Shown: one piece after another, positions 7,889 to 30,616 of the stretch | Layout: each line of letters opens with the position of its first letter | How positions within the stretch are numbered: position 1 is the first letter of the stretch | NCBI GenBank assembly: GCA_964003875.1 | Contig: CAXFLH010000001.1 | Span: 1-45,256, forward strand | Length of the DNA stretch: 45,256 nucleotides | Direction of reading: 5' to 3' | Source: an uncultured Flavobacteriales bacterium | Lineage (GTDB): Bacteria > Bacteroidota > Bacteroidia > Flavobacteriales > UBA7312 | Made by a program: the position numbers and the translations under genes | Notes under the pieces: model-generated | The model's database searches: none | Told to the model about the DNA's origin: nothing | What the model saw: the letters and a program-made list of their open reading frames with translations, nothing else

Positions 7889-8801
7889 TATTTAACCAGC
7901 CTATATTATACTCAGGCAAGATTTTTTTTAACTGAGCAATATCTTCTACAAAATAGGATTCTAAATTGGATTTCAAAGATTCATTTAAAGAAATTTTTGA
8001 CTTAGATAAATTTTTACGCATAATCAACTCTCTAATTAACTTAGTTTTTTGCTCTCCAATAGTGTTGTGAAGTATCTTTTTAATAAGACTAAATTTGGAA
8101 GATGATTGAAGAATTGCGTTTAATTTTTTACTCTTTGGCGCACCCGTACTTTTTTTATTTATCATAAAATGCGACACCTTAAAGCTACTATCAACTTCTA
8201 AAAAATCGAAAATATCAACTAATGATTTATCAATATCGTTTACAAAATCTTCAAAAAAAACAACTTTTACTTCCTTAAATGCATCTTTATAAGCTTTTAC
8301 CGATTCAGCATATGTGCTTAAGCCTTTATAGTGCCAAAAGGAATTAAACCCTTTTGAAATTCGTTCTGACTCTTGCTCAAGTGCATGCTTAAAGTCCAAG
8401 TTTTCATAGGTTGAATAATTATGAGAATAATTTGAAAATGCTCTCTCAATAGGGTTTCTTAAAAGAATTAAAATTTTTGGTGACTTACCATCTTTCAGTT
8501 GTTTAATTTTAGGAATTACTTCATGATGATGGTATAAATATTGTGTGCTCGCGTCACACTTTATTTTTTCACTTTTATTGGCATAAAGATTGGTATAATT
8601 AAGTTCATCAAGCACTGAACTTCTCAATAAATAGGGTTTAATAGGATCAGCTTCAGAAATGTTTTGAATACTGTCTTTTATAAAAAACCGTGGCTCTTTA
8701 TCAGGAATCGCTATATCTGGATGTTGACTAAGATAATGGTACAAAGAAGTCGTGCCTGCCTTCGGTGCTCCTACGATATATAAGTTAGGATAATTCATCA
8801 T
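7872..8801 (-). CDS. PAPS-dependent sulfotransferase (paralogue B)
   Basis: 309 aa. 5'-PSB loop LYIVGAPKAGTTSLYHYL and 3'-PB block ILLRNPIERAFSNYSH. The same motif order as the 3201-4049 product, but otherwise strongly diverged. Confidence 0.85.
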   Translation of the reverse strand: MMNYPNLYIVGAPKAGTTSLYHYLSQHPDIAIPDKEPRFFIKDSIQNISEADPIKPYLLRSSVLDELNYTNLYANKSEKIKCDASTQYLYHHHEVIPKIKQLKDGKSPKILILLRNPIERAFSNYSHNYSTYENLDFKHALEQESERISKGFNSFWHYKGLSTYAESVKAYKDAFKEVKVVFFEDFVNDIDKSLVDIFDFLEVDSSFKVSHFMINKKSTGAPKSKKLNAILQSSSKFSLIKKILHNTIGEQKTKLIRELIMRKNLSKSKISLNESLKSNLESYFVEDIAQLKKILPEYNIGWLNNGTNS

Positions 8802-15400: not shown

Positions 15401-18400
15401 TTAACTCATTCTCTACTGGCCATATAAGCTGATCATCAAGTCTAGAAACACCCCATGGAGTAACCTTTAGTGGGATTTCATACTCGTAATAATTGTCGTT
15501 AAAATCGGTACCTAATCTAACAAATAGTGATAAATCACCATCTTGTAGAGCTGACTCTATTTCTCCAGATGGTTCTGCATGCACATACATTTTTAGTCGC
15601 TTATAATTTCTAAAGTCGTTGTTGAAGGTTTTATAAGCAGCTCTTGAATCTCCATCTTCCAAATCGCAAACTTTAAGCACTAAAGATTGTTCGTTTTGCC
15701 TTCTAACATAGGTCGTAGTATTATCAACTTCTTGCTCTATACCAGGTGGTAATACATAAGGTACAGGTATTTTTTCAGCATTTTCTTCTATATTTACTAC
15801 AGAAACATCAAAAGAAGTATTACTAGCATTGTCATTTGGAACATATTCTCCTTCTGTTTTGAGACTAAAATTATAGCGTCTCCATTCGCCACGTACGAGT
15901 TCTAATGTTGCAAAACGCATTACGATAGGTTGGTCAAAATCTTTAAGTAGCATACGAATAAATCTTATGGATTTAAAGTCACGAATAGAGCCTACTGTTT
16001 TGTCAGGCTGTTGAACTGGGATTTTAAACTGATACCACTTTATCGTTCTATCCCCAGTTGGCGTCTTAGCCTCCGTTTCTTGTATGTCAGTAATGTAACT
16101 GTCACCAATTTGCATACCTGGAAATAAGGGGATATTGTAATGGTAATAACTTTCTGATTCGTTGAGTGTATTGTCAAAATTTATATCCTCTGTATTAGGA
16201 ATTGTCGTTGACATAGTTGGCAAAGGGTTTGGTATTGCTGAATTGCCATCTATCCCAGAAAAATATTCATATCGCTTTAAAATAGAAGCACTTTCATTAT
16301 CCAAGTTATCACCTAGGAAGTAAGTGTAGTTATCAGAGGAAGGGTCTGTCGATGCTAAGGAGTAAGCATTACTATTGACGCCATAATTGGATTCTATTTT
16401 TTGAATATAAGCCGTATCAAAAAATGTACGTTCATCAACATCCCTTAGACCATCAAGTCCCACATCTTGATATTGACGTGACTCTGCATCTACATCAAAG
16501 GAATTTGTCAATGCAAAAGTAGTAGGCATACGACCCCATACACTACTTTCATCGTCAACATTTTCTACAACATCTGAAGAAGGTAATCCATTTTCAAAAC
16601 TCTTGAAACCATCTTTTAAAACGTCTTCTGAAACATTACCTAAATTCATAATCAAGTTACCCCCACTTTGATTTTCCGAATCGTCATTAAAAGGATCCAT
16701 TATCCAAAACTCTACAAACTCAATATTTTGTAATTCGAAGTCTGTTGTTTCTAACTTACGCATGATTCCAGCCCATCTATTTTCGGGGTTTAGTAATAAT
16801 CCTGAGGTGGTAATATTTTCAGTATCAAAATTATAAGGTCCTCTTTTAGATGGATTATAGGAAAGATTAAAAACTGGTAAATTAGAAACTTGTGTAGCAT
16901 ATTGGGGGTCTCGATTAGGGAATACTTCCTTTTCAAGCACTTCTCTTACATTGTGGTTTGAAAGTTGTACTTCATCGTCAGCTATATGTCTAGGAGTATT
17001 ATTAGTATTTCTGTAAAATACTGGGTCAATATTATACCAAGATAATAATGCTCTATTTGCACCAGAGTTCAAATTTCCAAGTCTAGGACTTTGATTACCC
17101 AATGCAGACTCAGGGAATAAATCAGGGTCGTTTGGTAAACTAGCTAAAAACCAAGCCCCAGGATTTTTTATATCAATTCCTGTGCTACTAGCTTCAAAGT
17201 CATCAATATAAGCTGTTCCATTTTCACCTATTGCTCTTTGATGACCAGGAATGAGATGAGCAAACTCACCTTGAGCAGTAAGCATTGACTTTTCTTTGGT
17301 TTCTAATAGAGGTAAAAAATCTACAATTTTAGTTAATAAGCTAGATTCTCGTCTATATGTACCATCTAAACCCCATATGGTATTTGAGATAGGCTCATCG
17401 CCAGAATTCACTTTTTTGGTATAAGGTTTTTCAGTCAAGTTTAGAATAGTACCACCAAGCATAAAGTCATCAGAAATACGGTAATCTAAGTGAGTACCCA
17501 CCAGAGTTTTTTGTTGTAAGCCAAAAGTGTTGCTTTCAACAGATATTCGAATAGGAGTACCTGACAACAATATACCGTCATTGATGATATTAACTTTACC
17601 CATAGAATAATTAACAGTAAAGTCTTGTCCTTCTTCAAGTCGTAAACCTCCAGCCGTTACTACTACTGAGCCTTGTTCTATTGAAAAAACTCCCAAATAA
17701 ATTTCAGCTCCTGACTCAGATTGATAGCTTCCCTTTATTCTGAATTTGTTGTATTCTGGAAATTGTTGAGCAATGGTTAATGTAGAATCGTAAAGAACAT
17801 CATAAACGTAATTGCTTGCAATGTCATTGTTGCTAAATTTATCTCTTAAATCCTCACCAAAAGGTTCTCTTACTGGAAAAATGATTTTACCGTTTGAGGT
17901 AATTATTGTAATGCCAGGTAAGAAGTCAAAAATACCATCGGCCTTGCGCTCTTGCTGAGCATTTAATTGATCCAATCGTAAAAGATTAATTATAGGTTTA
18001 TCTGTTAGATTTTCTTCAGGAATATAATTCGTAATTGTACCATTATCTCTCGTGTTTTCAAAAACTACGTCTAAATAAAACTCTGTAGGGCTAACGTTGT
18101 ATGCCCCTAAAGAATAAATGTTTTTCATCATCAAGTCCCAGTTAGGTAGTTGTGGAGAAAAACTCAAATTTTTCAATAGTTTAACAAATAATGAGCTTGG
18201 TGCTGACGGCCCATTTGAGCTAAACTCACCCACTTGATAAAGTTCATTTCCTATGGTATATTGAAAAGCTACTGCTAATACCTCATCAGGACCGATAATG
18301 TTGTTTAATGAAATATAACCTAGTTGGGGGTGAAAGGTATATTCAGTCGGCGACAACAATCTTGCTCTTTCTAACTTTTCATAATCTTGAGAGCCTAAAA

Positions 18401-19658
18401 AGTTTGGATAATTAGCAGTGCCAAAAATGCTATTCACTTGATTAATATTTCTTAAAGGTTCACCTTCAGCAAGCATCTGTTGATAAAGTGTATTGTTATC
18501 ATTGTCAGGATACGAAAAGTCAGCATTATCAGAAAATAAAATCGTGTTATACATATCGGACTGAGACTCTCCTAAATCTAAAAAGGCTAAAATATTTCTT
18601 GTGTCTTCAACAGTTCCTGTTTTGTTTGTTACCCAAACCTCGATTTTTGTAATATTTACTGGCGAATTGATAAAAGGTAGCTGTGACATGGCCTCATTAT
18701 ACCTTGACTTAAAGTAATGGGATAGAAAAAAGTGTTTATTGGTTTCGTATTGATCAGCATAGATATCAAAGTCTGTGGTTTGCGCACCCCCTTCAACATC
18801 AATTACTTTAGAATTACTTTTTTGTTGAGAAAAAATAGTAGTTACTGTTGCTCGACCAAATTGCAGTTGTGTTTTTAAACCCAATAAACTTTGACTTCCA
18901 GAAATTAAAGTACCATTTAGAGGTAAGCCTACATTTCCTATTTCGATTTTCTTTATTATTTCATCTTCTTCGCCTTCATATTCCAGCTTGATCTTGTTGT
19001 CAAAATCAAAAATTGCTTCAGTATTGTAATTGGTATTGAGTTGGAGTTTATCACCAATTTTACCGATGACATTCATTTGTATTTTTTGCTTGAAGTCAAA
19101 GCTTGTATTACTTTGTTTATCTATTGGCAAAGCATTATTTTCGGTCTTGTTGTGCTTAATAGAAAATATCAGTTCAGCTGAGCCTTGAGGCCTAATATCT
19201 ACCGTACTATTTCCAAATATCTTATCAAAAATCTCTCCTCCTATGTCTATACTCAAAGGACCTTTATTGGTGTTATCTCCACTAAGCGAAGGGTTTGAAG
19301 TTTTTTCTTTCCAATAGTCTGATATAGATTGTCTAGAATTGTAATTATCGTATTCTTCGGCACTCAGAAATGTAGGGTTTGAAAGTCTAAAACCATTTAT
19401 TTTTTGCTCTACACTGTAAAGCTTTGACTCAGGGTCGTACTCCAATTGAGGCTGTAGGTTAGCGGGAGGATTTAGGTAAAAACCGCTAATCGGATTATCT
19501 AGTGGATTATCCCATGGATTATTTTCTGGCATCTGAAAGATTAGGCTATCATTAGTAGACTGAGAAAATGAAAATTTACTCAGCACTAAAAACAAGAAAA
19601 AGCACCAAAGTGCTTGTTTATGTATTGCCTTATTTTGAAACACTATAAATCCATTCAA
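12498..19658 (-). CDS. sprA: Type IX secretion system translocon SprA (Sov)
   Basis: Single 7161-nt ORF (2386 aa) with an N-terminal hydrophobic signal-like segment. N/S/T/Y/G/D-rich beta-type sequence ends in ...GGFSVRFTLAQ. Size and composition match the roughly 2400-aa SprA barrel of Flavobacterium johnsoniae. T9SS cargo genes lie nearby. The precise start is uncertain. Confidence 0.9.
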   Translation of the reverse strand: MNGFIVFQNKAIHKQALWCFFLFLVLSKFSFSQSTNDSLIFQMPENNPWDNPLDNPISGFYLNPPANLQPQLEYDPESKLYSVEQKINGFRLSNPTFLSAEEYDNYNSRQSISDYWKEKTSNPSLSGDNTNKGPLSIDIGGEIFDKIFGNSTVDIRPQGSAELIFSIKHNKTENNALPIDKQSNTSFDFKQKIQMNVIGKIGDKLQLNTNYNTEAIFDFDNKIKLEYEGEEDEIIKKIEIGNVGLPLNGTLISGSQSLLGLKTQLQFGRATVTTIFSQQKSNSKVIDVEGGAQTTDFDIYADQYETNKHFFLSHYFKSRYNEAMSQLPFINSPVNITKIEVWVTNKTGTVEDTRNILAFLDLGESQSDMYNTILFSDNADFSYPDNDNNTLYQQMLAEGEPLRNINQVNSIFGTANYPNFLGSQDYEKLERARLLSPTEYTFHPQLGYISLNNIIGPDEVLAVAFQYTIGNELYQVGEFSSNGPSAPSSLFVKLLKNLSFSPQLPNWDLMMKNIYSLGAYNVSPTEFYLDVVFENTRDNGTITNYIPEENLTDKPIINLLRLDQLNAQQERKADGIFDFLPGITIITSNGKIIFPVREPFGEDLRDKFSNNDIASNYVYDVLYDSTLTIAQQFPEYNKFRIKGSYQSESGAEIYLGVFSIEQGSVVVTAGGLRLEEGQDFTVNYSMGKVNIINDGILLSGTPIRISVESNTFGLQQKTLVGTHLDYRISDDFMLGGTILNLTEKPYTKKVNSGDEPISNTIWGLDGTYRRESSLLTKIVDFLPLLETKEKSMLTAQGEFAHLIPGHQRAIGENGTAYIDDFEASSTGIDIKNPGAWFLASLPNDPDLFPESALGNQSPRLGNLNSGANRALLSWYNIDPVFYRNTNNTPRHIADDEVQLSNHNVREVLEKEVFPNRDPQYATQVSNLPVFNLSYNPSKRGPYNFDTENITTSGLLLNPENRWAGIMRKLETTDFELQNIEFVEFWIMDPFNDDSENQSGGNLIMNLGNVSEDVLKDGFKSFENGLPSSDVVENVDDESSVWGRMPTTFALTNSFDVDAESRQYQDVGLDGLRDVDERTFFDTAYIQKIESNYGVNSNAYSLASTDPSSDNYTYFLGDNLDNESASILKRYEYFSGIDGNSAIPNPLPTMSTTIPNTEDINFDNTLNESESYYHYNIPLFPGMQIGDSYITDIQETEAKTPTGDRTIKWYQFKIPVQQPDKTVGSIRDFKSIRFIRMLLKDFDQPIVMRFATLELVRGEWRRYNFSLKTEGEYVPNDNASNTSFDVSVVNIEENAEKIPVPYVLPPGIEQEVDNTTTYVRRQNEQSLVLKVCDLEDGDSRAAYKTFNNDFRNYKRLKMYVHAEPSGEIESALQDGDLSLFVRLGTDFNDNYYEYEIPLKVTPWGVSRLDDQLIWPVENELNITFEQLLDAKQERNKAIRDGIHNSSTDPFSGTDKQITVVGNPNISMVKTIMLGVRNPRKGDFNSTINDDGTSKCGEIWLNELRLTDFDERGGYAANGRINARLADFANVNLTGSMSTIGFGSIDQSLTARQKYDAYQYDFSSTFALGNFFGEKAAIKIPMYVGVSEAIQNPQYNPLDPDITLKASLDELQSNEEKEELKEIAQDLTKRKSINFTNVRKNKSSSSGKKAKIYDIENLSATYSRNETFSRNVNLKERTTVSTKASLNYTYSSKPKNIKPFQKVKLFKNKYFALLKDFNFYTLPKSISFQTDLDRYYNKTQFRNINNPDFTLPPYYNKAFVWNRNYSIKYDLTRTLKTEFKVRNSASIDEPDGELVKSDSYYQEKKDSIWNNILNFGRPTLYHHSLNASYNVPLNKFPLTSWINLNTKYVANYDWLAAPLSLQSLGNTIQNSNNKQINSTFNFGQLYNKVPFLKKLNRTGPSVGVRGRGSSRETIRLPNQASDTVKVSFKEIANTLLKTTLLVKNLSISYRQNQGVVLPGFNKKPHFFGQDWDAMAPGIPFALGSQNIDIRELSSQGGWLTSSTNLNQFFKLTNSETLNLRGTLEPFKGFRIELTANRTKTNNVQEIYRFDSDLGDYDSFNSIENGSHSISFISWNSAFIKDDDNYSNATFQQFRQNREIIANRLADSNPYDNSIVDSTGYPLGYQSTSQEVLIPAFLAAYSGKNASSVGLNNFPNIPLPNWRINFDGLRNLKWIKKRMNNIVLSHSYQSTYSVGNYVTSLDYEAGFDEWPNAINEATLNYYDKYEINQVTLRETLNPLFKIDLTFKNSMTARLEIKKERTLSLGLSNNQLTDRSSDEWIIGTGYRIKELAFNVRAAGRQRKISSDLDLKLDFSLRSNKVVIRKIEENQEEITGGNSVITLKFTADYVVSSRFNLRLFYDKVMTNPYVSNTFPSAITNGGFSVRFTLAQ

Positions 19659-22602: not shown

Positions 22603-23313
22603 TTATTTGCTAACAACTAAACGCTTCATTGTTTTTAACTGTCCATTAACTGATATATTAGCAAAATACAAACCTGCCTTAGTATCACTCACATCAAATT
22701 TAATCGTGCCACTCTGATTACTAATATTTTCTTTACGAATCACATTTCCAAGCATATCAGTTACTACAATCTCAGCAGCATCAGAATAATTTAGACTGTA
22801 ATCTAAAAAAGCTGTCGAAGACGTAGGGTTTGGGTGAAATTCTGAAAAAGAAGTAACACTAAAATTTTCTTCAACAGAGGTTGGATCTACGTTGTAGTAA
22901 ACAATTGTACAAGCTGAATCAGATGGGTTAGCTTCATTAAAAGCACAATACTTTACAGAAGCAGAGGCTGGCTTATAACCTTTATTGTCATAATGTACCT
23001 GAAAGCTGTTCTCATCAACCTCTTGTGGAGAAAAGGTCTTTGCATCAGGGGAAACACTTGTTTGAGAGCCATAACAAGCATTCCAACAAAAATAATTCTC
23101 AGTTCCTAGTGATTGATTAAGCGTTTGCCTGGAAACGAAAATGTTAATCGTAGCATCAGAGATGTTTCTGACTGTAATCTCAGTACCAATATCACCAATC
23201 AATGTTGTACAACAACTAGGATCAACATTTTTTTTATGAGCCTCAACGCTAATACTCTGAGAGAAAACTGATAAAGAGAGTAAAAGTGATGATATTATTA
23301 GTAAATTTTTCAT
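22603..23313 (-). CDS. Small six-cysteine secreted protein with T9SS type-A C-terminal sorting domain
   Basis: 236 aa. Signal peptide MKNLLIISSLLLSLSVFSQ, a roughly 130-aa domain with 6 Cys (SCC, FCWNAC, YCAF, SACT), and a C-terminal ...FHPNPTSSTAFLDYSL...EIVVTDMLGNVI...GLYFANISVNGQLKTMKRLVVSK matching the Por_Secre_tail pattern. Confidence 0.85.
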   Translation of the reverse strand: MKNLLIISSLLLSLSVFSQSISVEAHKKNVDPSCCTTLIGDIGTEITVRNISDATINIFVSRQTLNQSLGTENYFCWNACYGSQTSVSPDAKTFSPQEVDENSFQVHYDNKGYKPASASVKYCAFNEANPSDSACTIVYYNVDPTSVEENFSVTSFSEFHPNPTSSTAFLDYSLNYSDAAEIVVTDMLGNVIRKENISNQSGTIKFDVSDTKAGLYFANISVNGQLKTMKRLVVSK

Positions 23314-23647: not shown

Positions 23648-23655
23648 TAAATTTG
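23648..23655 (+). promoter_or_regulatory. Candidate -7 box (TAAATTTG) for the T9SS thioredoxin-fold gene
   Basis: The plus strand reads TAAATTTG (TAnnTTTG), 24 nt before ATG 23680, with a TTG at 23622-23624 as a possible -33 element. Confidence 0.45.
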
Positions 23656-23679: not shown

Positions 23680-25230
23680 ATGACTAACTTTATCAAAAAC
23701 CTACTCATAGTTTTATTTTTATCGACTTCATTTATTGCATCGGCTCAACTTCCTGATGGCTCGATTGCACCTGACTTTACAACTACAGACGTCAATGGAA
23801 ATGAACACAGACTATATGATTACTTAGACAACGGATACACAGTAATACTAGATATTAGTGCCACATGGTGTCAACCTTGCTGGAACTATCACACAGGTGG
23901 TACATTTGAAGAAATATGGGAAGCTCACGGCCCAGCTGGAGAGCCAGGCGTAAGTCCAAACACTACAGACGATGTAATGATTCTCTGGTTTGAAGGAGAT
24001 CCAGGTACTGCTCTTAGTGAATTGGAAAATAGTAATTTTGGAAACTGGTTAGCACCAAATGGAAATGAAGTATATTTCCCAATAAGTAATGACAACAATA
24101 TTGCCAACTTGTACGATCTACCTTATTGGCCAATTATTTACACTATTTGTCCTAACAGAACCCTTACAGAGTCTGGTCAATTGTCAGCATCAGCACACTA
24201 TAACAACTTAGCAAACTGCCCTTCAGAAACTGAAGGAACCAATGCTGCTTTGCTAAATATTGATACTGATATTCTTCCTAACGGATGTGAATCAAGTGCA
24301 TCAGGAAATTTCTCAGTTGTTGTTCAAAATATGGGAACAAATAACCTAACTTCTTTTAGTGTTGAAATAAGTGCTAACGGACAGACTATCGCGTCAGAAG
24401 AATTCAACGGAAATCTAAATACTTTCGAAACAACGACTATCAATTTTGGAAACATTACTGTTGATGTAGAAACGATTGAAGTAAATATTACTTCTTCTGA
24501 TGACAATGCCGATGATAACTCCATGTCTCACTCTGTTGATTTTTCAACTGGTCAGTCTTCTCAGATGGTTAAAGTAAACCTACTTACTGACAACTATGGT
24601 AACGAAACCTATATGCAAATTACTGACGAAAACAATAACGTTATTTGGTTTGAAGGAAATGAAGCTGTTGCTGGAATGGTAGGGACCGGTCAATTAGCAC
24701 CTGCTGATGCAACTAATCCCTTAGGAAACAATCAAATGTATTCGTGGGACGTCACACTTCCAACTACAGGATGTTTTAAATTTGAAATAACTGATTATTA
24801 TGGTGATGGCTTAGCAGCTTCAACTAATACAAGCGGTGGTGTTGATGGAGATTGGTCTATTGAGGATAACAACGGTATCATCATTTCTCAACAAACCGTT
24901 CAGAATTTTGAAAACGAAGATGATACCTATTTTGAAAACACTGAAGCTGGAACATCATCAATTGACGAAAATGACAACTTTGGTTTTGCTATCTATCCAA
25001 ACCCTATGAACTCTAATGCGACAATAAAGGTTAACCTTTCTGAAAGTTCAGATGTTAGGTTAGATGTTGTTAATATACTTGGAGAAGTAAATCTTTCCAG
25101 AACATTTGGATTAAATGTAGGAAATAATTCTATTGATCTAGACGTTAGCAATTTAACTAGTGGTATTTATTTTGCTCACATTACTGCAAATGGTGAAACA
25201 AAAACTATGAAAATCACAGTTACTAGATAA
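23680..25230 (+). CDS. T9SS-secreted multidomain protein with N-terminal thioredoxin/redoxin-like CxxC domain
   Basis: 516 aa. Signal peptide ...STSFIASAQ, then a redoxin-like start LPDGSIAPDFTTTDVNGNEHRLYDYL..GYTVILDISATWCQPCW. The middle contains beta-sandwich-like segments (CARDB-like ...GNFSVVVQNMGTNNLTSF...; ...CFKFEITDYYGDGL...). C-terminal sorting domain ...IYPNPMNSNATIKVNLS...LDVVNILGE...GIYFAHITANGETKTMKITVTR. Confidence 0.85.
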   Translation: MTNFIKNLLIVLFLSTSFIASAQLPDGSIAPDFTTTDVNGNEHRLYDYLDNGYTVILDISATWCQPCWNYHTGGTFEEIWEAHGPAGEPGVSPNTTDDVMILWFEGDPGTALSELENSNFGNWLAPNGNEVYFPISNDNNIANLYDLPYWPIIYTICPNRTLTESGQLSASAHYNNLANCPSETEGTNAALLNIDTDILPNGCESSASGNFSVVVQNMGTNNLTSFSVEISANGQTIASEEFNGNLNTFETTTINFGNITVDVETIEVNITSSDDNADDNSMSHSVDFSTGQSSQMVKVNLLTDNYGNETYMQITDENNNVIWFEGNEAVAGMVGTGQLAPADATNPLGNNQMYSWDVTLPTTGCFKFEITDYYGDGLAASTNTSGGVDGDWSIEDNNGIIISQQTVQNFENEDDTYFENTEAGTSSIDENDNFGFAIYPNPMNSNATIKVNLSESSDVRLDVVNILGEVNLSRTFGLNVGNNSIDLDVSNLTSGIYFAHITANGETKTMKITVTR

Positions 25231-25255
25231 AGGATAATTTGCTCAAAACAAAAAA

Positions 25256-25294
25256 GGTCAGTAGATTAGCCTAACTAATTTACTGACCTTTTTT
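25256..25294 (+). terminator. Strong rho-independent terminator after the T9SS thioredoxin-fold gene
   Basis: GGTCAGTAGATTAG-cctaa-CTAATTTACTGACC is a 14-bp stem with one G-U pair, flanked by an A5 run upstream and TTTTTT downstream. It begins 26 nt after the stop codon. Confidence 0.85.
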
Positions 25295-25317
25295 AATGCT
25301 TTAAAACTAAAAATACT

Positions 25318-25809
25318 ATGAAAAAATTATTGATTTTTACCGCTTTTTTATCTTTCACTTTACTCTCTTTTTCTCAAAATAGAACTTTGCCAAAAGTAGA
25401 CTTGAAAACACTTGACAATAATACTTTTAACACTTCTGACTTCGATAATAATGGCAAACCTATTGTTATTAGCTTTTGGGCAACTTGGTGTAAACCTTGT
25501 ATCAAAGAGTTAAACAATATTGCCGAAGTTTATGAAGATTGGCAAGACGAAACAGGTGTTAAAGTCATTGCAATTTCTATTGACGATGCTAGAAATATGA
25601 GTAAAGTAAAACCTAAAGTAAATGCCTTGTTATGGGATTACGAAGTTTATTGCGACCCTAACAGCGACCTTAAAAGAGCTATGGGTGTTGGCTCAGTCCC
25701 ACACACTTTTTTACTCAATGAAAATAAAGAAATCGTTTATCAACACACTGGCTATAAAGATGGTGACGAATACGATTTATTCAAAAAAATAGAAGCCTTA
25801 TCAAAATAA
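25318..25809 (+). CDS. TlpA/ResA-family periplasmic thiol:disulfide oxidoreductase
   Basis: 163 aa. Signal peptide MKKLLIFTAFLSFTLLSFSQ and thioredoxin-fold motif KPIVISFWATWCKPCIKEL...VKVIAISIDD...VPHTFLLNENKEIVY. Confidence 0.9.
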   Translation: MKKLLIFTAFLSFTLLSFSQNRTLPKVDLKTLDNNTFNTSDFDNNGKPIVISFWATWCKPCIKELNNIAEVYEDWQDETGVKVIAISIDDARNMSKVKPKVNALLWDYEVYCDPNSDLKRAMGVGSVPHTFLLNENKEIVYQHTGYKDGDEYDLFKKIEALSK

Positions 25810-25812
25810 ATT

Positions 25813-27471
25813 ATGAAAAGACTCACTATTATTATTGCCTTTAGTTTTATCGCATTTATAACTTGGGCACAAGATAATTCTAACGGCAATATTCAAGGTG
25901 ATTTTAATCTAAGTACTCAGAGTTATTACGAAGACCCTGCTATAAACGCTGGAAAGGTTGATGAGTTTATGCTCATGAATGCTTATTCCAATATTCGATA
26001 TAACAAAGGTAACTTTACAGCCGGTGTACGTTTCGAAAGTTATTTAAACGTTTTGCAAGGTTTTGAATCAAACTTTAATGGCAATGGCATACCCTATCGA
26101 TTTGCTCAGTATAATGTTAATGGCTTAGATATAACTGTAGGTAACTTTTACGAACAATTTGGAAATGGTCTCATCTTTAGAAGCTACGAAGAAAAAACAC
26201 TAGGCATCGACAATGTTATGGATGGTGTTCGTCTAAAGTATAGTCCACTAATAGGATTATCACTTAAAGGGTTTGTTGCTACTCAACGCTTATTTTGGGA
26301 ACAAGGGCCGGGGATTATAAGAGGGTTCGATGCTGACTTAAACCTGAATGAAGCTATCTCTTCTCTAGAAAGAAGCAAGACAAATGCCATAATCGGAGGT
26401 AGTTTTGTGAGTCGTTTTCAAGATGATAACAATCCCGTTTTTAATTTGCCGGAAAACGTAGCTGCTTATGCTATTCGTTCTACCGTTAACAGAGGAAAAA
26501 TTTCTTTTAATTCTGAATACGCTTATAAATACAATGACCCAGCAGGAGGAATAACCTATAATAATTTTGCTCCGGGAAGTGCCTTAATGACTAACCTTTC
26601 ATATTCTCAAAGAGGCTTGGGTATAATGTTAGAAGCACACAGAGTTGATAATATGGAATACCGTTCCAAAAGAGGTGGGACAGGAAAAGAACTCACTTTA
26701 AATTACATTCCAGCCATAAGTAAACAACACGCTTACACCTTGGCAGCTTTCTACCCTTTTGCTACTCAGCCTTTAGGAGAATTAGGGTTTCAAGGAGAAA
26801 TCAACTATACTTTTAAAAAGAAAAGTAAATTAGGTGGTAAATATGGCACACAAGTTGCTGTCAATTATTCAAGAATTAATGGACTCAATGGCGGTCCTTC
26901 AGAGTTAACATTAAACAGAGACCATACCCCAATGTTTTTTAGTGTTATTAATGAAGAACTCTATTTTAGAGATTTAAACTTCGACCTAAAAAAGAAAATC
27001 AGCAAAAAAGTCAAGGTTATGCTGAACTACTTAGATGTCATTTACAATAAAGATGTCATAGAAGGGAAAATTATTGGCAAAAACGTACACGCTAGAATTG
27101 GAATAGCAGAGGTTAATTACAAAATGAAACCTAAACACACTTTAAGAAGTGAATTTCAATACCTTTCAGTTGATAAAAGTGAAGAATACTACAAAGATCA
27201 AGGCGATTGGGTAATGGGATTGCTAGAATATACCTTTTCTCCACATTGGTTTTTTGCTTTTGTAGATCAATATAATGGTGGCTATACTAGCGAAGGTAAA
27301 ACCTATGAAGCCGTACATTACCTCAACATCAGTTGTGGCTACAGTAAAGGAACCAACCGTTTTGAATTAGGATATGGTAAGGTCCGAGAGGGTATTTTTT
27401 GTGTGGGTGGTGTCTGCCGTAATGTACCATCATCCAATGGATTTACTCTTAATATAACTTCAAGCTTTTAA
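25813..27471 (+). CDS. Large uncharacterised outer-membrane beta-barrel protein (DUF6029-type by recollection)
   Basis: 552 aa. Signal peptide ...AFITWAQ and a beta-strand-patterned sequence ending ...GFTLNITSSF (terminal Phe), with a C-x4-C pair (FCVGGVCRN) near the C-terminus. Starts 3 nt after the tlpA-like stop. Confidence 0.75.
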   Translation: MKRLTIIIAFSFIAFITWAQDNSNGNIQGDFNLSTQSYYEDPAINAGKVDEFMLMNAYSNIRYNKGNFTAGVRFESYLNVLQGFESNFNGNGIPYRFAQYNVNGLDITVGNFYEQFGNGLIFRSYEEKTLGIDNVMDGVRLKYSPLIGLSLKGFVATQRLFWEQGPGIIRGFDADLNLNEAISSLERSKTNAIIGGSFVSRFQDDNNPVFNLPENVAAYAIRSTVNRGKISFNSEYAYKYNDPAGGITYNNFAPGSALMTNLSYSQRGLGIMLEAHRVDNMEYRSKRGGTGKELTLNYIPAISKQHAYTLAAFYPFATQPLGELGFQGEINYTFKKKSKLGGKYGTQVAVNYSRINGLNGGPSELTLNRDHTPMFFSVINEELYFRDLNFDLKKKISKKVKVMLNYLDVIYNKDVIEGKIIGKNVHARIGIAEVNYKMKPKHTLRSEFQYLSVDKSEEYYKDQGDWVMGLLEYTFSPHWFFAFVDQYNGGYTSEGKTYEAVHYLNISCGYSKGTNRFELGYGKVREGIFCVGGVCRNVPSSNGFTLNITSSF

Positions 27472-27473
27472 TT

Positions 27474-28262
27474 ATGAAAAAGACCTATTATTTATTTCTT
27501 AGTTTATTTATACTTAGTTTAACTTTTTCATGTGATGTCATCGAAAAAGATAATTTTACAGACCCTAACGCTGGCTTTCCTTGGCTAGGTAAAAAGGTGC
27601 TAATTGAAGATTTCACAGGCTTCAAGTGTACTAATTGTCCAGACGCATCTGCAGAACTACACAAGATTGAAGAACTTTATCCTGACAAAGTGATTGGCAT
27701 AGCCATTCATGCTGGTTCTTTTGCTGAGCCAAGTGGTGTTTTTGTCACAGACTTTAGAACAAATGAAGGTAATGAAATTACAGATTTGTTCGGTCCTGAA
27801 GGCTTTCCAATAGGTATGGTCAACAGACAAGGTTACCCTGAAAATGTTCTGTTAAGTTACACCGATTGGGCTAGTCAAGCTTTAGAACAATTACTACAAA
27901 CACCAACTATTGAACTCTCTATTTCTGAAGAAAATAATTCCGTTAGTGTTCAAGCAAGACGACTTTCAGAGTCCAATAATAGTCTGAAATTAGTGGTATG
28001 TATTACTGAAGATGGTATCATTGACAAACAAATCGATGGTGGTGAATTAATTGAGGAGTATGAACATAATCATGTGCTTAGAAAAGTAATTAATGGAGCT
28101 TGGGGGAGTAATATACAATTGAGTAGTACTTCAAGCACATATAGCTATGACTATACTTTAGAAGATTCATGGGTAAAAAGTAACTGTAACATAGTAGCCT
28201 ACGTATACGACAATAGCAATAAAGAAATTTTGCAAGTCGAAAAAATACATCTCACGGATTAA
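27474..28262 (+). CDS. Omp28-related lipoprotein with thioredoxin-like CxxC motif
   Basis: 262 aa. Lipobox LSLTFSC, then KKVLIEDFTGFKCTNCPDA in the position where thioredoxin-fold proteins carry their active site. Starts 2 nt after the barrel gene. The family name is a recollection. Confidence 0.75.
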   Translation: MKKTYYLFLSLFILSLTFSCDVIEKDNFTDPNAGFPWLGKKVLIEDFTGFKCTNCPDASAELHKIEELYPDKVIGIAIHAGSFAEPSGVFVTDFRTNEGNEITDLFGPEGFPIGMVNRQGYPENVLLSYTDWASQALEQLLQTPTIELSISEENNSVSVQARRLSESNNSLKLVVCITEDGIIDKQIDGGELIEEYEHNHVLRKVINGAWGSNIQLSSTSSTYSYDYTLEDSWVKSNCNIVAYVYDNSNKEILQVEKIHLTD

Positions 28263-28275
28263 TCACCCAAGTACA

Positions 28276-29238
28276 ATGACAAAAATCTTAACCTTTTTAT
28301 TTATAGTCTGTTCTTCATTTTTTGTTTCAGCTCAGAACATTACAGTCAGTAACACTTCAGATGCTACTAATTTTTTAGGGGCCTATTTCTCTCCCTTTGC
28401 TGAATCTATTGGAGCTGGTCTAAACAAAGGATGGTACAATACAGCAAAGCCACATAAATTGGCTGGTTTTGATGTTAGCCTAAGTCTAAACTTAATTACT
28501 ATATCAGATGAAGTAGCTGCGTTTGATGTCAATAGTATAGACAACTTTAGCAGTACTTCTTCATCAACACCAAGTATCTTGGGAAGCGGAGAAGGTGCAA
28601 CTATAAATTATCAAAACGAAAATGTGAACGGTCAATTTGTAATGCCTGACCAAAATATTGATATAAAAGCTGTACCAATTCCAACTTTAAATGTAGGGCT
28701 TGGCTTAATAAAAGGAACTGAAATTAATGTAAGATATATTCCGACTTATGAGTACAATATAGGCTTTGTAGGAAAAGGGTCTGTAGAACTTTACGGTGCT
28801 GGAATAAAACACGATATTTTGCAATGGTTACCTTTAAATAAATTTTTACCATTCGATTTATCGATTCAAGGTGCTTTTAGTCAATTCAACACCTCCTTTG
28901 AAGTAGAAAGTCAAAGCGTTAGACAAGGAGTAGGTTTAGATATACAAGCAAGTACAGTCAATCTTATCTTTTCAAAAAAGTTTGCTATGATAACTGCTTA
29001 CGCTAGTGTAGGTCAAAATTTTGTAAGTTCTACACTTAATGCCAATTCAAACTTTAGCTTAGGCAGTACAAGTACTTTAAATTTTGATTTCCCCTTAGAA
29101 ATTAATATGCCAAACACTTCTGAAATGCAAGCTTCAGCAGGAGTTCGACTTCAATTTGCTATCTTTACACTTTATGCCAATCAGACCTTTTCTAGCTATC
29201 CAAGTACATCGGCAGGAATTGGCATCAGTTTTAGATGA
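28276..29238 (+). CDS. Uncharacterised secreted/outer-membrane protein
   Basis: 320 aa. Signal peptide MTKILTFLFIVCSSFFVSAQ, S/T/N/G-rich beta pattern, and C-terminus ...SAGIGISFR. No catalytic motif recognised. Confidence 0.65.
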   Translation: MTKILTFLFIVCSSFFVSAQNITVSNTSDATNFLGAYFSPFAESIGAGLNKGWYNTAKPHKLAGFDVSLSLNLITISDEVAAFDVNSIDNFSSTSSSTPSILGSGEGATINYQNENVNGQFVMPDQNIDIKAVPIPTLNVGLGLIKGTEINVRYIPTYEYNIGFVGKGSVELYGAGIKHDILQWLPLNKFLPFDLSIQGAFSQFNTSFEVESQSVRQGVGLDIQASTVNLIFSKKFAMITAYASVGQNFVSSTLNANSNFSLGSTSTLNFDFPLEINMPNTSEMQASAGVRLQFAIFTLYANQTFSSYPSTSAGIGISFR

Positions 29239-29828
29239 CACGATTAATTTTCAAATGTATTTTTTGCCTTGCCATAAGTAGTTATTGCTATGGTCAAAAT
29301 TTCAAAGCAGGACTTATTGCTGGTGTTAGCACTTCGCAGGTATCTGGCGACCAATTAGGTGGTTTTAACAAGTTAGGAATCAAGTTTGGTGCTTCAGTCA
29401 ATCATTTTATAAATTCTGCTAGTCGTGGTCAACTAGCATTGTACTATATCGACAAAGGGAGTAATGATGTTAATAGCGATTTTAGGATTGATTTATCCTA
29501 TATTGAAACGTCTTGGTGCGTTCAGAAAACATCTAAAGGGTTTATTTATGAAGGAGGACTATTATTTGGTGTTTTGGTAGATGGCAAAACATACGATATC
29601 TATGGCTATGAAGACGTCCAAAAAAATGATTTCCATAAATTTGATATCGGTGCAAAGTTAGCTGCAGGAGTCAAACTCAAACCTCAACTGACTATGTTTT
29701 GGGAATTGAGCAATAGTATTCCCTTTTTTCCCATACAAGATCACCCAGGTGGAGCTACCTACGGACTAAACAAAGGCAAATATAATTCCATATTAAGTTT
29801 TTCTTTCCGATATTTGTTCTCTGAATGA
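29235..29828 (+). CDS. Small outer-membrane beta-barrel protein (porin/OmpA-barrel-like family)
   Basis: 197 aa. Signal peptide ...SSYCYGQ, then NFKAGLIAGVSTSQVSGD..., typical of 8-10-stranded OMP_b-brl proteins. ATGA 4-nt overlaps on both sides. Confidence 0.7.
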   Translation: MTRLIFKCIFCLAISSYCYGQNFKAGLIAGVSTSQVSGDQLGGFNKLGIKFGASVNHFINSASRGQLALYYIDKGSNDVNSDFRIDLSYIETSWCVQKTSKGFIYEGGLLFGVLVDGKTYDIYGYEDVQKNDFHKFDIGAKLAAGVKLKPQLTMFWELSNSIPFFPIQDHPGGATYGLNKGKYNSILSFSFRYLFSE

Positions 29829-30391
29829 GTAAGAAACAAAAAATAGTAGTTTCGGTAAGTGGCGCTAGTGGTGCTATCTATGCCAAAGTATTGTTTGACA
29901 GACTACAACAACTACATAATCAGGTTGAAGAAGTAGGTATTTTGATGTCTGATAATGCAAAATACGTTTGGAAAACAGAATTGGGTAATAGCGATTATAA
30001 AGATTTACCTTTTAAATTTTACAAACCACAAGACTTTACCGCACCATTTGCATCTGGTTCAGCACGCTTTGAAACAATGATTATTTGCCCTTGTTCTATG
30101 GGTACATTAGGACGTATTGCCCAAGGCATTTCTAATGATTTAACTACTCGAGCTGCTGATGTAATACTTAAAGAAAGAAGAAAACTTATACTAGTAGCAA
30201 GAGATACTCCCTTAAATCTTATTCATATCAATAATATGAAGACCATTACCGAAGCGGGTGGTATCATTTGCCCAGCTACCCCTTCATTTTATAGCAATCC
30301 TTCTACTTTTGAAGAATTGGCATCTACAGTTGTTGATAGAGTTATTGCTTTAGCTGGACTAGAGCAAGATTCTTACCAATGGGGGCAATAA
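29825..30391 (+). CDS. ubiX: Flavin prenyltransferase UbiX
   Basis: 188 aa. KIVVSVSGASGAIYA..., MIICPCSMGTLGRIAQGISNDLTTRAADVILKERRKLILVARDTPL..., ...GGIICPATPSFY, as in the UbiX/Pad1 family. Confidence 0.9.
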   Translation: MSKKQKIVVSVSGASGAIYAKVLFDRLQQLHNQVEEVGILMSDNAKYVWKTELGNSDYKDLPFKFYKPQDFTAPFASGSARFETMIICPCSMGTLGRIAQGISNDLTTRAADVILKERRKLILVARDTPLNLIHINNMKTITEAGGIICPATPSFYSNPSTFEELASTVVDRVIALAGLEQDSYQWGQ

Positions 30392-30430
30392 TACCTTTTG
30401 TTTTGTAGTTATGTAATAAATTACAAAACT

Positions 30431-30616
30431 ATGCTTCGTTTTTGCAAAACCATTTTACAAAAAGTTTCTTTCGACAAAAACTTATTTAAAAAAGAACTTA
30501 AAAAATCCACTCGTTTAGTCAATAAAAAAGAACAAATGGTATTGAAAATATGGTGTTTAACTACTTTTGCTAACTACAAAGACATTATTCTCGATGTATT
30601 CGAAAATACTATTTAA
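30431..30616 (+). CDS. Small basic hypothetical protein (61 aa from the first ATG)
   Basis: The track ORF starts at a TTG (30398). The first ATG gives [61 protein letters not shown]. No recognisable motif. The 3' end overlaps the queG stop region by 8 nt. Coding status is uncertain. Confidence 0.35.

What the first reader, a model, noticed from the sequence alone, without database searches (positions are those of the whole stretch)
25318..29828. Tight envelope operon pairing a TlpA-like reductase with a 552-aa OM barrel, a CxxC Omp28-like lipoprotein and two more OM proteins: candidate uncharacterised outer-membrane thiol-redox system
Seen in the sequence: five ORFs are separated by 3, 2, 13 and -4 nt, and ubiX follows at -4 nt. 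A 14-bp terminator (25256-25294) isolates them from the upstream gene, so this looks like one transcription unit. All five products carry a signal peptide or lipobox. ORF1 is a TlpA/ResA-type thioredoxin (WATWCKPC). ORF2 is a large barrel ending in Phe, with a C-x4-C pair (FCVGGVCRN) close to its C-terminus. ORF3 is a lipoprotein (LTFSC) with a second thioredoxin-like site (EDFTGFKCTNCP). ORF4 and ORF5 are further OM-type proteins. A third CxxC thioredoxin-fold protein, exported by T9SS, is encoded immediately upstream. Established knowledge: TlpA-family proteins pass reducing equivalents in the periplasm, for example in cytochrome c and CuA maturation. To my knowledge the barrel (DUF6029-type) and Omp28-type partners have no assigned function. 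Inference: this could be a relay that carries thiol-redox chemistry from the periplasm to the outer membrane or cell surface. That compartment is not normally considered redox-serviced in diderm bacteria.
Basis: partly seen in the sequence, partly recalled or inferred. Interest (0 to 1): 0.72.

Follow-up and report, generated by a model that had tools for sequence, protein, structure and literature searches.

The report
Conserved Bacteroidota outer-membrane thiol-redox gene cassette
A periplasmic TlpA-like reductase, a 24-strand outer-membrane barrel with an invariant cysteine pair and a thioredoxin-fold lipoprotein are encoded together from marine Flavobacteriales to Porphyromonas gingivalis, usually beside type IX secretion cargo genes, and no paper I could search describes what this cassette does.

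Summary

The core is three genes, not five: TlpA-like reductase, DUF6029 barrel, Omp28 lipoprotein. In 80 loci from different species the trio is intact in 61 of 67 loci with enough flanking DNA. WCxPC, the barrel's C-x4-C and the lipoprotein's CxxC are essentially invariant. ORF5 (30/70), ubiX (23/67) and DUF6588 (6/67) are lineage add-ons.

AlphaFold2 gives ORF3 a thioredoxin domain plus a beta-sandwich. Its best structural match is P. gingivalis HBP35, a type IX secretion system (T9SS) surface protein with CxxC-dependent thioredoxin activity and hemin binding.

The barrel has about 24 strands. Its Cys pair staples the tip of the last, outward-facing hairpin.

- T9SS cargo genes are about 22-fold enriched just upstream, many of them HBP35-like.
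- The 236-aa gene at 22603-23313 is a PorA homologue.
- P. gingivalis carries the same trio, with its porA homologue directly downstream; its reductase matches PDB 2M72 and its Omp28 matches 2R2C.

Verdict: a real, phylum-wide, uncharacterised envelope thiol-redox module. A redox relay across the outer membrane is possible but unproven. A metal or haem-binding role is a serious rival.

The parts
22603..23313 (-). PorA-like small T9SS cargo protein (236 aa). It has conserved Cys residues, including C-x3-C, and a C-terminal sorting domain.
   Evidence: Por_Secre_tail hit, 44.5 bits. A profile of the N-domain only hits P. gingivalis PorA at E = 1e-16 and finds a homologue in 40 of 80 genome loci, mostly divergent upstream of the cassette. 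Pairwise BLASTP against P. gingivalis PorA gives E = 4e-4.
23648..23655 (+). TAAATTTG, a match to the Bacteroidota -7 promoter box (consensus recalled from memory), 24 nt before the cargo gene's ATG. It is a candidate promoter for the cargo gene and possibly the cassette.
   Evidence: Pattern search and sequence. There is no such box in 25100-25320.
23680..25230 (+). T9SS cargo protein (516 aa) with an N-terminal thioredoxin-like WCQPC motif (W63). It sits where most other loci carry an HBP35-like cargo gene.
   Evidence: Por_Secre_tail 55 bits; AhpC-TSA and ResA hits are partial (residues 17-68) and below cut-off. It is not a clear Omp28-type domain. In 44 of 62 loci the nearest upstream gene is a T9SS cargo gene.
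25250..25294 (+). Terminator-like hairpin plus T-run between the cargo gene and ORF1. Its stem sequence is conserved in relatives.
   Evidence: dG -25.2 kcal/mol, z = -6.7. The same GGUCAGUAG/CUACUGACC stem and U-run occur in L001, L002, L004 and L013. No Rfam family matches.
25318..25809 (+). ORF1: soluble periplasmic TlpA/ResA-like thiol-disulfide oxidoreductase, WCKPC (C58 at 25489-25491, C61 at 25498-25500).
   Evidence: Pfam AhpC-TSA, Redoxin and Thioredoxin_8 above cut-off. Best solved relative is 2M72 (E = 8e-47), which matches the cassette reductase of P. gingivalis. ORF1 is 48% identical to that protein. A homologue lies immediately upstream of DUF6029 in 67 of 73 loci.
25813..27471 (+). 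ORF2: DUF6029 outer-membrane beta-barrel of about 24 strands, with an invariant C530-x4-C535 (27400-27417) at the tip of the last hairpin and a C-terminal Phe.
   Evidence: PF19494 over the full length, 583.6 bits. C530 is conserved in 99% and C535 in 100% of 124 representatives at 30-52% identity. AF2 model pLDDT 89.7 with its strand map. Foldseek finds only generic similarity to large barrels.
27474..28262 (+). ORF3: Omp28-family lipoprotein (lipobox Cys20). It has a thioredoxin domain with C52-T-N-C55-P, cis-Pro candidate P112 and His79, then a beta-sandwich carrying E-H198-N-H200.
   Evidence: NF033782 at 190 bits, above the 150 cut-off. AF2 pLDDT 90.6. Foldseek: HBP35 5Y1A E = 1.4e-12, 2AXO, 2R2C. 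Profile search: 2R2C 5.5e-34, 5Y1A 2.7e-5. C52, C55 and P56 are present in 77 of 77 orthologues. A homologue lies immediately downstream of DUF6029 in 72 of 74 loci.
28276..29238 (+). ORF4: DUF6588 exported protein. It is a lineage-specific add-on, not part of the core.
   Evidence: PF20230 over the full length. Present after Omp28 in only 6 of 67 loci. No solved relative.
29235..29828 (+). ORF5: small putative outer-membrane barrel and a frequent accessory gene.
   Evidence: Weak OMP_b-brl_2 hit, 20.4 bits against a cut-off of 27. Homologues follow Omp28 in 30 of 70 loci. No solved relative.
29825..30391 (+). ubiX (flavin prenyltransferase), overlapping ORF5 by 4 nt. It is a frequent downstream neighbour and its link to the cassette is unexplained.
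   Evidence: TIGR00421 at 179.6 bits. Follows the cassette in 23 of 67 loci.

Best explanation
This is a phylum-wide three-protein envelope thiol-redox module.

Proposed mechanism:
1. ORF1, a soluble periplasmic TlpA-like reductase, takes electrons from a CcdA/DsbD-type inner-membrane protein that is not encoded here.
2. ORF1 keeps the CxxC of ORF3 reduced. ORF3 is an Omp28 lipoprotein with the same thioredoxin-plus-beta-sandwich build as the surface thioredoxin/hemin-binding protein HBP35.
3. ORF3 works in complex with the dedicated 24-strand DUF6029 barrel (ORF2). That barrel's invariant Cys pair sits at the outward tip of its last hairpin.
4. The module thereby provides reduced thiols at or through the outer membrane. 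It probably also serves the HBP35-like and other CxxC-bearing T9SS cargo proteins encoded next to it.

Shown here: gene linkage, motif conservation, the predicted folds, homology to HBP35, and the association with T9SS cargo genes.

Inferred: the direction of electron flow, a physical ORF2-ORF3 complex, the side of the membrane ORF3 faces, and the substrate.
For: - Linkage. TlpA-like lies immediately upstream of DUF6029 in 67/73 loci, Omp28 immediately downstream in 72/74, and the full trio is present in 61/67 loci from different species. These span Flavobacteriales, Bacteroidales, Cytophagales, Sphingobacteriales and others.
- The same order recurs with unrelated flanks in L005-L008 and in P. 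gingivalis.
- Motif conservation. WCxPC is found in 71/72 reductases. CxxC, the following Pro and the cis-Pro candidate are in 76-77 of 77 lipoproteins. The barrel Cys pair is in 99-100% of 124 representatives.
- ORF3 has a confident thioredoxin fold with the CxxC at the start of helix 1.
- ORF3 is homologous to HBP35. Recombinant HBP35 reduces insulin in a CxxC-dependent way and is surface-located (PMC2907840).
- NCBIfam holds a model named 'Omp28-related selenoprotein', so some relatives contain selenocysteine, as redox proteins often do. I did not check where the selenocysteine lies.
- T9SS cargo genes make up 74/168 genes within 4 kb upstream against 12/351 elsewhere in the same loci (odds ratio 22, p = 6e-30). 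Of the large upstream proteins, 21-30 carry an Omp28-type domain with one CxxC.
- The cassette reductases form a distinct orthologous group: 2M72 scores E = 8e-47, the next solved relative 7e-15.
Against: - There is no experimental or structural evidence for any contact among the three proteins. Multimer modelling was not available.
- The barrel's Cys pair lies on the extracellular side by topology. A C-x-G-G-x-C hairpin staple could be purely structural.
- Barrels that lack adjacent partners still keep the pair (L017, L038).
- The lipoprotein also conserves His79 (99%), His198 (90%) and His200 (79%). That pattern fits a metal or haem site as well as catalysis.
- No CcdA/DsbD gene was noted in the loci whose gene tables were read, and I did not search for one.
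- The 80 loci analysed are the closest of at least 598, so linkage in more distant family members is untested.
Confidence: 0.45

Rival explanations
1. Ligand acquisition rather than redox catalysis. Omp28 would be a Sco1/HBP35-like binding protein whose reduced Cys2 plus His residues hold a metal ion or haem. The TlpA-like protein would only keep those thiols reduced, as TlpA does for ScoI, and the barrel would be the passive channel for that ligand.
For: - His79, His198 and His200 are conserved alongside the CxxC in the lipoproteins, and partly in HBP35 and the cargo paralogues.
- HBP35 binds hemin and is needed for growth in low hemin (PMC2907840).
- In locus L038 the barrel is followed by COX3 and a SCO1/SenC gene instead of Omp28.
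- The window and L004 carry cytochrome oxidase genes a few kb downstream.
- TlpA-to-ScoI reduction is established biology (from my own knowledge).
Against: - No binding data exist for any Omp28 protein.
- Whether the His residues lie next to the CxxC in three dimensions could not be checked, because no coordinates are returned.
- A selenoprotein branch of the family points more towards catalysis.
- The cassette occurs in P. gingivalis and in other Bacteroidales and Lentimicrobium loci. These are mostly anaerobes by my own knowledge and I did not check them for cox genes, so a role tied specifically to cytochrome oxidase seems unlikely.
- The barrel has no TonB-type plug, so it could not drive energised haem uptake.
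Confidence: 0.25
2. Outer-membrane export or assembly device. The DUF6029 barrel would move its own lipoprotein, and perhaps the neighbouring small cargo protein PorA, to the cell surface. The TlpA-like protein would keep these Cys-containing passengers reduced while they cross.
For: - A PorA homologue is a conserved neighbour, found in 40/80 loci.
- In P. gingivalis the PorA-like gene lies directly downstream of omp28.
- PorA reaches the P. gingivalis surface without the T9SS machinery by an unknown route (PMC7712824; discussed in PMC12152298).
- The mature N-terminus of Omp28 is a conserved acidic motif, C-D-K-I-[DE]-x-P-Y. It resembles Bacteroidota lipoprotein surface-export signals, which I recall from memory.
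- A 24-strand barrel is usher-sized; FimD and PapC are among the best Foldseek hits.
Against: - This rests on synteny alone.
- The Foldseek similarity is generic (TM-score 0.47 or less).
- PorA also uses PorV and the T9SS, and its four Cys residues are not needed for its signalling role (PMC12152298).
- An export role gives no reason for the barrel itself to keep an invariant Cys pair.
Confidence: 0.1
3. Loose association. The barrel would be an ordinary porin whose Cys pair is a structural disulfide. TlpA and Omp28 would act on unrelated periplasmic clients, and the gene order would be inherited synteny without a shared mechanism. This includes the published suggestion that DUF6029 is a polysaccharide-export porin.
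For: - Extracellular-loop disulfides are common in large barrels (from my own knowledge).
- Partner-less barrels keep the Cys pair.
- PMC9603273 reports HHpred similarity between DUF6029 and the Wzi barrel.
Against: - The order and adjacency survive complete turnover of the flanking genes across orders of Bacteroidota. In my experience that is unusual for genes with no shared function.
- The genes are tightly packed or overlapping (median gaps of 12-28 nt).
- In these loci the barrel's immediate neighbours are TlpA and Omp28. No polysaccharide-export gene appeared among the upstream-neighbour families, though I did not scan for such genes systematically.
- Wzi is not among the top 50 Foldseek hits.
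Confidence: 0.15

Closest known systems
HBP35 of Porphyromonas gingivalis (PDB 5Y1A)
   Same: It shares the two-domain build of ORF3: a thioredoxin-like domain with a CxxC, then a beta-sandwich. It also shares the conserved His positions. Foldseek gives E = 1.4e-12 with TM 0.67, and the profile search E = 2.7e-5. HBP35 is located at the outer membrane or cell surface, and CxxC-dependent reductase activity was measured in vitro (PMC2907840).
   Different: HBP35 is exported by the T9SS and anchored through A-LPS by a C-terminal sorting domain. ORF3 has no such domain and is a lipoprotein. Their CxxC dipeptides differ: CGYC in HBP35, C-x-N-C-P in the Omp28 lipoproteins. HBP35-like proteins are separate genes that often sit upstream of the cassette.
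TlpA / ResA / CcmG periplasmic reductases fed by CcdA or DsbD
   Same: ORF1 has the fold, the WCxPC motif and an export signal. The proposed role is the same: handing reducing equivalents to a specific thioredoxin-fold or Cys-pair client in an otherwise oxidising compartment.
   Different: ORF1 scores far below the cut-offs of the ResA, TlpA and DsbE equivalog models. It belongs to its own orthologous group, represented by PDB 2M72. Its genomic partners are an outer-membrane barrel and a lipoprotein, not cytochrome c or CuA maturation genes.
TlpA-ScoI/CoxB copper-site maturation (Bradyrhizobium)
   Same: A TlpA-type reductase is paired with a membrane-tethered thioredoxin-fold protein whose Cys pair plus His must stay reduced to function.
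   Different: Omp28 is not a Sco family member. It is tethered to the outer membrane, not the inner one, and it comes with a dedicated barrel. Metal binding has not been tested.
MtrCAB porin-cytochrome conduit (Shewanella)
   Same: The gene triad has the same logic: a periplasmic redox protein, a large outer-membrane barrel and an outer-membrane lipoprotein redox protein. MtrB appears among the generic Foldseek hits to ORF2.
   Different: There is no homology, and the chemistry would be thiol-disulfide exchange rather than haem electron transfer. Nothing shows that either soluble partner sits inside the barrel.
SprF-GldK and PorG-PorK disulfide links in gliding motility and the T9SS (PMC12635249)
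   Same: This is a precedent that invariant Cys pairs in Bacteroidota outer-membrane barrels are functional and form disulfides with lipoproteins.
   Different: Those cysteines form a Cys-x-Cys motif in a periplasmic C-terminal tail. Here the motif is C-x4-C in an outward-facing hairpin just before the terminal strand, and the family is different.

Membership tests
TlpA/ResA-like thiol-disulfide oxidoreductases (Pfam Redoxin / AhpC-TSA) | Thioredoxin-fold domain scoring above the family cut-offs | tested here: met
   AhpC-TSA 79.1 bits (cut-off 26), Redoxin 69.8 (26.6), Thioredoxin_8 47.2 (27).
TlpA/ResA-like thiol-disulfide oxidoreductases (Pfam Redoxin / AhpC-TSA) | WCxxC active-site motif and export to the periplasm | tested here: met
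   WCKPC at residues 57-61. The N-terminus looks like a signal-peptidase-I signal (...LSFSQ), judged by eye. WCxPC is present in 71 of 72 orthologues.
ResA, TlpA or DsbE/CcmG equivalogs (NCBIfam) | Score at or above the curated equivalog or subfamily cut-off | tested here: not met
   ResA 81 bits against 170, TlpA 42.6 against 230, DsbE 52.6 against 123. ORF1 should not be named as any of these.
DUF6029 (PF19494) | Full-length match above the gathering score | tested here: met
   583.6 bits, residues 1-552 against model positions 1-538.
DUF6029 (PF19494) | Outer-membrane beta-barrel with a C-terminal aromatic residue and the conserved C-x-G-G-x-C-R motif | tested here: met
   AF2 model pLDDT 89.7 with about 24 strands. 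The Cys pair is conserved in 99-100% of 124 representatives and the terminal Phe in 94%.
Omp28-family outer-membrane lipoprotein (NF033782 / PF11551) | Score above the curated cut-off over the full length | tested here: met
   NF033782 190.4 bits against 150, residues 3-260. PF11551 107 bits against 34.9. The A1 profile matches P. gingivalis Omp28 (2R2C) at E = 5.5e-34.
Omp28-family outer-membrane lipoprotein (NF033782 / PF11551) | Lipobox cysteine after the signal peptide | tested here: met
   LTFSC20 in ORF3. A lipobox Cys was located in 73 orthologues, followed by the conserved motif D-K-I-[DE]-x-P-Y.
Thioredoxin-fold CxxC oxidoreductase (applied to ORF3) | beta-alpha-beta-alpha-beta core with the CxxC at the N-terminus of helix 1 and a cis-Pro loop | tested here: met
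   In the AF2 model strand 42-48 is followed by C52-x-x-C55 and helix 55-68, and P112 precedes strand 113-116. C52, C55 and P112 are conserved in 99-100% of orthologues.
Thioredoxin-fold CxxC oxidoreductase (applied to ORF3) | Measured thiol-disulfide exchange activity | not testable with these tools
   Activity has been shown only for the homologue HBP35 (PMC2907840).
T9SS cargo protein (HBP35-type) | [quoted passage not shown] | tested here: not met
   ORF3 has no such hit. The neighbouring genes at 22603-23313 and 23680-25230 do.
Trans-membrane disulfide relay (DsbD/CcdA-like logic) | A membrane-embedded redox-active Cys pair that both compartments can reach | tested here: inconclusive
   An invariant Cys pair exists in the barrel. 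By topology it lies at the tip of the last extracellular hairpin. Its redox activity and its accessibility from the lumen could not be assessed.
Single operon | Co-transcription of ORF1 to ubiX | not testable with these tools
   Gaps of 3, 2, 13, -4 and -4 nt and the conserved gene order support it. The promoter was not located.

The most novel reading that the evidence does not exclude
The cassette is a thiol-based counterpart of the MtrCAB porin-cytochrome conduit. Reducing equivalents would pass from periplasmic TlpA, through a thioredoxin-fold lipoprotein lodged in or on a 24-strand barrel and through the barrel's outward-facing Cys pair, to the cell surface. There they would recharge the T9SS-anchored HBP35-like CxxC proteins. 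The outer face of a diderm cell would then be an enzymatically reduced compartment.
Probability: 0.2. Interest if true: 0.9.

Novelty: new variant of a known kind. Interest (0 to 1): 0.72.

Why it matters
Periplasmic reducing pathways are known to end at periplasmic clients. This one is hard-wired to an outer-membrane barrel and to a lipoprotein homologous to a surface thioredoxin. It is conserved across Bacteroidota, including abundant marine Flavobacteriales and the pathogen P. gingivalis.

It could answer several open questions:
- How surface CxxC proteins such as HBP35 stay functional outside the cell.
- What Omp28 and DUF6029 do.
- Possibly how PorA reaches the surface without the T9SS.

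P. gingivalis carries the same trio (W83 locus tags PG2175-PG2173, inferred from published locus numbering), and solved structures already match two of its proteins (2M72 and 2R2C). The hypotheses can therefore be tested directly by genetics and thiol trapping.

Tried and rejected
- Selenocysteine idea. Six 148-159-aa 'short Omp28' database entries suggested an in-frame UGA at the CxxC. Only P0042 was examined, and its contig shows a frameshift-split gene in a low-coverage assembly. Rejected for that entry.
- The upstream 516-aa cargo protein is not a clear Omp28/HBP35-type domain. hhalign gave a probability of 1.7%, with only the CxxC stretch aligning.
- ORF5 is not related to the gene that follows omp28 in P. 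gingivalis. That gene is PorA-like instead.
- Foldseek found no specific solved homologue of the barrel, only generic large barrels with TM-score 0.47 or less.
- Sequence searches of ORF4 and ORF5 against the PDB found nothing.
- SprA lies 6 kb upstream, and within 8 kb in 17 of 80 loci. In 16 of those 17 it travels with ruvA, so I treat it as lineage synteny rather than evidence of function.
- Rfam has no match to the hairpin region.
- Searches of the paper library for DUF6029, Omp28 with thioredoxin, PG2172-PG2175, PGN_0123-PGN_0126 and surface thioredoxin lipoproteins found no description of the cassette.
- The homologous-protein run on ORF2 returned only near-identical sequences. Diversity came from the representative library instead.

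Full report
**1. The observation**

The gaps are 3, 2, 13, -4 and -4 nt.

The intergenic hairpin at 25250-25294 folds at -25.2 kcal/mol with z = -6.7 and is followed by a T-run.

Pfam and NCBIfam confirm the assignments:
- ORF1 is a TlpA/ResA-like redoxin. It scores above the Pfam cut-offs but far below every NCBIfam equivalog cut-off.
- ORF2 is a full-length DUF6029 protein (583.6 bits).
- ORF3 is an Omp28-family lipoprotein (NF033782, 190 bits against a cut-off of 150).
- ORF4 is DUF6588.
- ORF5 gives only a weak small-barrel hit.
- ubiX is confirmed.

The cysteine motifs sit at ORF1 C58/C61, ORF2 C530/C535 and ORF3 C20 (lipobox) and C52/C55.

The upstream 516-aa protein has a T9SS sorting domain and WCQPC, but only a partial, sub-threshold thioredoxin-family hit.

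One correction concerns the hairpin. There is no Bacteroidota -7 box (TAnnTTTG) between it and ORF1, whereas TAAATTTG sits 24 nt before the cargo gene's ATG. The operon's promoter is therefore unresolved, and read-through of the hairpin is possible. The hairpin's stem sequence is conserved in relatives whose proteins are only about 50-65% identical.

**2. The unit is three genes, and it is conserved across the phylum**

Contexts of distant Omp28 homologues (35-50% identity) show the same order, TlpA-like, DUF6029, Omp28, with unrelated flanking genes.

I analysed the best 80, from Flavobacteriales, Bacteroidales, Vicingaceae, Hymenobacter, Sphingobacteriaceae, Lentimicrobium and others, using HMMs built here. 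Counts are over loci with enough flanking DNA.

| Feature | Loci |
|---|---|
| TlpA-like gene immediately upstream of the barrel | 67/73 (two more are fused or displaced) |
| Omp28 gene immediately downstream | 72/74 |
| Whole trio | 61/67 |
| ORF5-like gene after Omp28 | 30/70 |
| ubiX after the cassette | 23/67 |
| DUF6588 after Omp28 | 6/67 |

The last three are add-ons rather than core parts. The 80 loci are the nearest relatives of ORF2 (41-65% identity), so more distant DUF6029 members remain untested.

**3. Cysteine conservation**

- In 124 full-length DUF6029 representatives (30-52% identity), C530 is present in 99% and C535 in 100%. They sit in the motif G-x-x-C-x-G-G-[VI]-C-R-x-x-P. 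The third Cys of ORF2 is not conserved.
- WCxPC is present in 71 of 72 cassette reductases.
- In 77 Omp28 lipoproteins C52, C55 and P56 are invariant. H79 and P112 are present in 99%, H198 in 90%, H200 in 79% and R203 in 97%.

**4. Structures**

AF2 models ORF3 at pLDDT 90.6 as a thioredoxin-like domain followed by a beta-sandwich (residues 146-259). Strand 42-48 leads into C52-x-x-C55 at the start of helix 55-68, and the cis-Pro candidate P112 precedes strand 113-116.

Its best solved matches are:
- P. gingivalis HBP35 (5Y1A): E = 1.4e-12, TM 0.67.
- The DUF1223 protein 2AXO.
- The Omp28 C-terminal domain 2R2C.

A profile of the family also finds HBP35 by sequence (E = 2.7e-5), aligning the CxxC and the His positions.

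HBP35 is a T9SS-exported, A-LPS-anchored surface protein. It shows CxxC-dependent insulin-reductase activity and hemin binding, and it is needed for growth in low hemin (PMC2907840).

AF2 models ORF2 at pLDDT 89.7 as a barrel of about 24 strands. Short and long connections alternate consistently from both termini. On that reading the last two strands (515-531 and 534-551) form a long hairpin closed by G532-G533, and C530 and C535 face each other at its outward tip.

This topology is inferred from the secondary-structure string and the usual rules for outer-membrane proteins. No coordinates were available. Foldseek finds only generic large barrels such as FimD/PapC, TonB-dependent transporters, MtrB and LptD, all with TM-score 0.47 or less.

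**5.

- In 44 of 62 loci the nearest gene upstream of the reductase carries a Por_Secre_tail domain, and three more carry CHU_C. Twenty-one of these hit Pfam Omp28.
- Thirty of these large upstream proteins contain a full Omp28-type domain by my HMM. Twenty-nine of the 30 keep the CxxC pair. They are HBP35-like.
- Within the same loci, cargo genes make up 74 of 168 genes in the 4 kb upstream against 12 of 351 elsewhere (odds ratio 22, p = 6e-30).
- The 236-aa gene at 22603-23313 on the minus strand belongs to a family found in 40 of 80 loci. A profile of its N-terminal domain alone hits P. gingivalis PorA at E = 1e-16 (pairwise E = 4e-4).

**6. P. gingivalis carries the same trio**

In CP024594 the order is:
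- a TlpA-like gene of 160 aa, which matches PDB 2M72 at E = 5e-96;
- a DUF6029 gene of 581 aa, with the motif NCSGGVCR;
- Omp28 of 290 aa, with lipobox VASC followed by DIIDKD, and the CxxC motif CLNC;
- a 240-aa protein with a weak sorting-domain hit.

These proteins are 48%, 35% and 32% identical to ORF1, ORF2 and ORF3.

Published locus numbering gives PG2173 as Omp28 and PG2172 as PorA (PMC9722745). The 240-aa gene is therefore most probably porA, and the two upstream genes are PG2174 and PG2175. That mapping is inferred from the numbering, not read from an annotated W83 record.

PorA regulates T9SS genes through PorXY-SigP. [quoted passage not shown]

None of the searchable papers discusses PG2174, PG2175 or PGN_0124-PGN_0126. 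DUF6029 appears in the library only as a speculative polysaccharide porin.

**7. Interpretation**

The linkage, the three invariant Cys pairs, the thioredoxin fold and the HBP35 homology together make a dedicated thiol-redox module at the outer membrane the best-supported reading (confidence 0.45). In it, ORF1 reduces ORF3, which works with ORF2, and the module probably serves the adjacent CxxC-bearing T9SS cargo.

A true relay across the outer membrane is attractive. Surface thioredoxin-like proteins need a source of electrons, above all in oxic seawater. The gene triad also mirrors MtrCAB. But it is unproven, and the outward position of the barrel's Cys pair argues against direct reduction by periplasmic TlpA. 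I put it at about 0.2.

The main rival is ligand binding (0.25). Conserved Cys2 plus His79, His198 and His200, the hemin binding of HBP35, the TlpA-ScoI precedent and the COX3-SCO1 neighbours in locus L038 all fit a metal or haem site that merely has to be kept reduced.

An export role for the barrel (0.1) and mere synteny with a structural disulfide (0.15) are not excluded.

**8. Novelty**

The component families are catalogued, and solved structures match two of the P. gingivalis proteins. The cassette as a system, its phylum-wide conservation, the invariant Cys pair in the barrel and the link to HBP35-like and PorA-like cargo are not described in the literature I could search. I rate it a new variant of a known kind, namely a TlpA-type reducing pathway. 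If the relay across the outer membrane is real, it would be categorically new.

Noticed in passing
window 22603-23313 (-); L089 8899-9621: The 236-aa T9SS cargo gene is a PorA homologue. PorA-like genes accompany the TlpA-DUF6029-Omp28 cassette in 40 of 80 species loci. In P. gingivalis the PorA-like gene lies directly downstream of omp28. None of the papers I searched or read mentions this synteny.
   Followed up: partly
window 25250-25294; L001 3430-3474, L002 5777-5822, L004 5789-5816, L013 197-224: The hairpin between the cargo gene and tlpA keeps the same stem sequence (GGUCAGUAG/CUACUGACC plus U-run) in relatives whose proteins are about 50-65% identical. That is more sequence conservation than I would expect for a plain terminator. 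No -7 promoter box follows it, so it may act as an attenuator or processing site.
   Followed up: partly
window 29235-30391: ubiX overlaps ORF5 by 4 nt, and ORF5-ubiX follows the cassette in 23 of 67 loci across several orders. Why a flavin prenyltransferase travels with an envelope redox cassette is unexplained.
   Followed up: partly
window 12498-19658 (-): The 2386-aa ORF is SprA, the T9SS translocon, 6 kb upstream of the cassette. SprA lies within 8 kb in 17 of 80 loci, in 16 of those 17 together with ruvA, so this looks like lineage synteny.
   Followed up: partly
L038 7923-12420: One DUF6029 barrel lacks TlpA and Omp28 neighbours. It is followed by COX3 and a SCO1/SenC copper chaperone, and preceded by a 1649-aa Peptidase_C25 protein. 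It still keeps the Cys pair.
   Followed up: partly
window 27534-27557 (ORF3 residues 21-28): The mature N-terminus of the Omp28 lipoproteins is a conserved motif, C-D-K-I-[DE]-x-P-Y (Asp/Glu 92% at +2, 79% at +5; Pro 85% at +7). It could be a lipoprotein surface-export signal or a docking peptide for the barrel.
   Followed up: partly
L001 5658-6447: Six database entries for 148-159-aa 'short Omp28' proteins start at about residue 116 of the full protein. The one examined (P0042, on L001) is half of a frameshift-split gene in a low-coverage assembly, not a distinct isoform or a selenoprotein.
   Followed up: partly
window 30398-30616 (+): A 72-aa TTG-start ORF lies between ubiX and queG and has no family hit. 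A 61-aa gene is called at the same position in L001.
   Followed up: no
window 7872-10132 (-): A sulfotransferase and a Polysacc_synt/MatE-type flippase point to a sulfated-polysaccharide biosynthesis cluster at the left end of the window.
   Followed up: no
L043 6282-7960; L049 508-1302: In two Flavobacteriales loci the TlpA gene upstream of the barrel is replaced by a UbiA-family prenyltransferase, with a methyltransferase before it in L043. This is a second link to prenyl or quinone chemistry besides ubiX.
   Followed up: no
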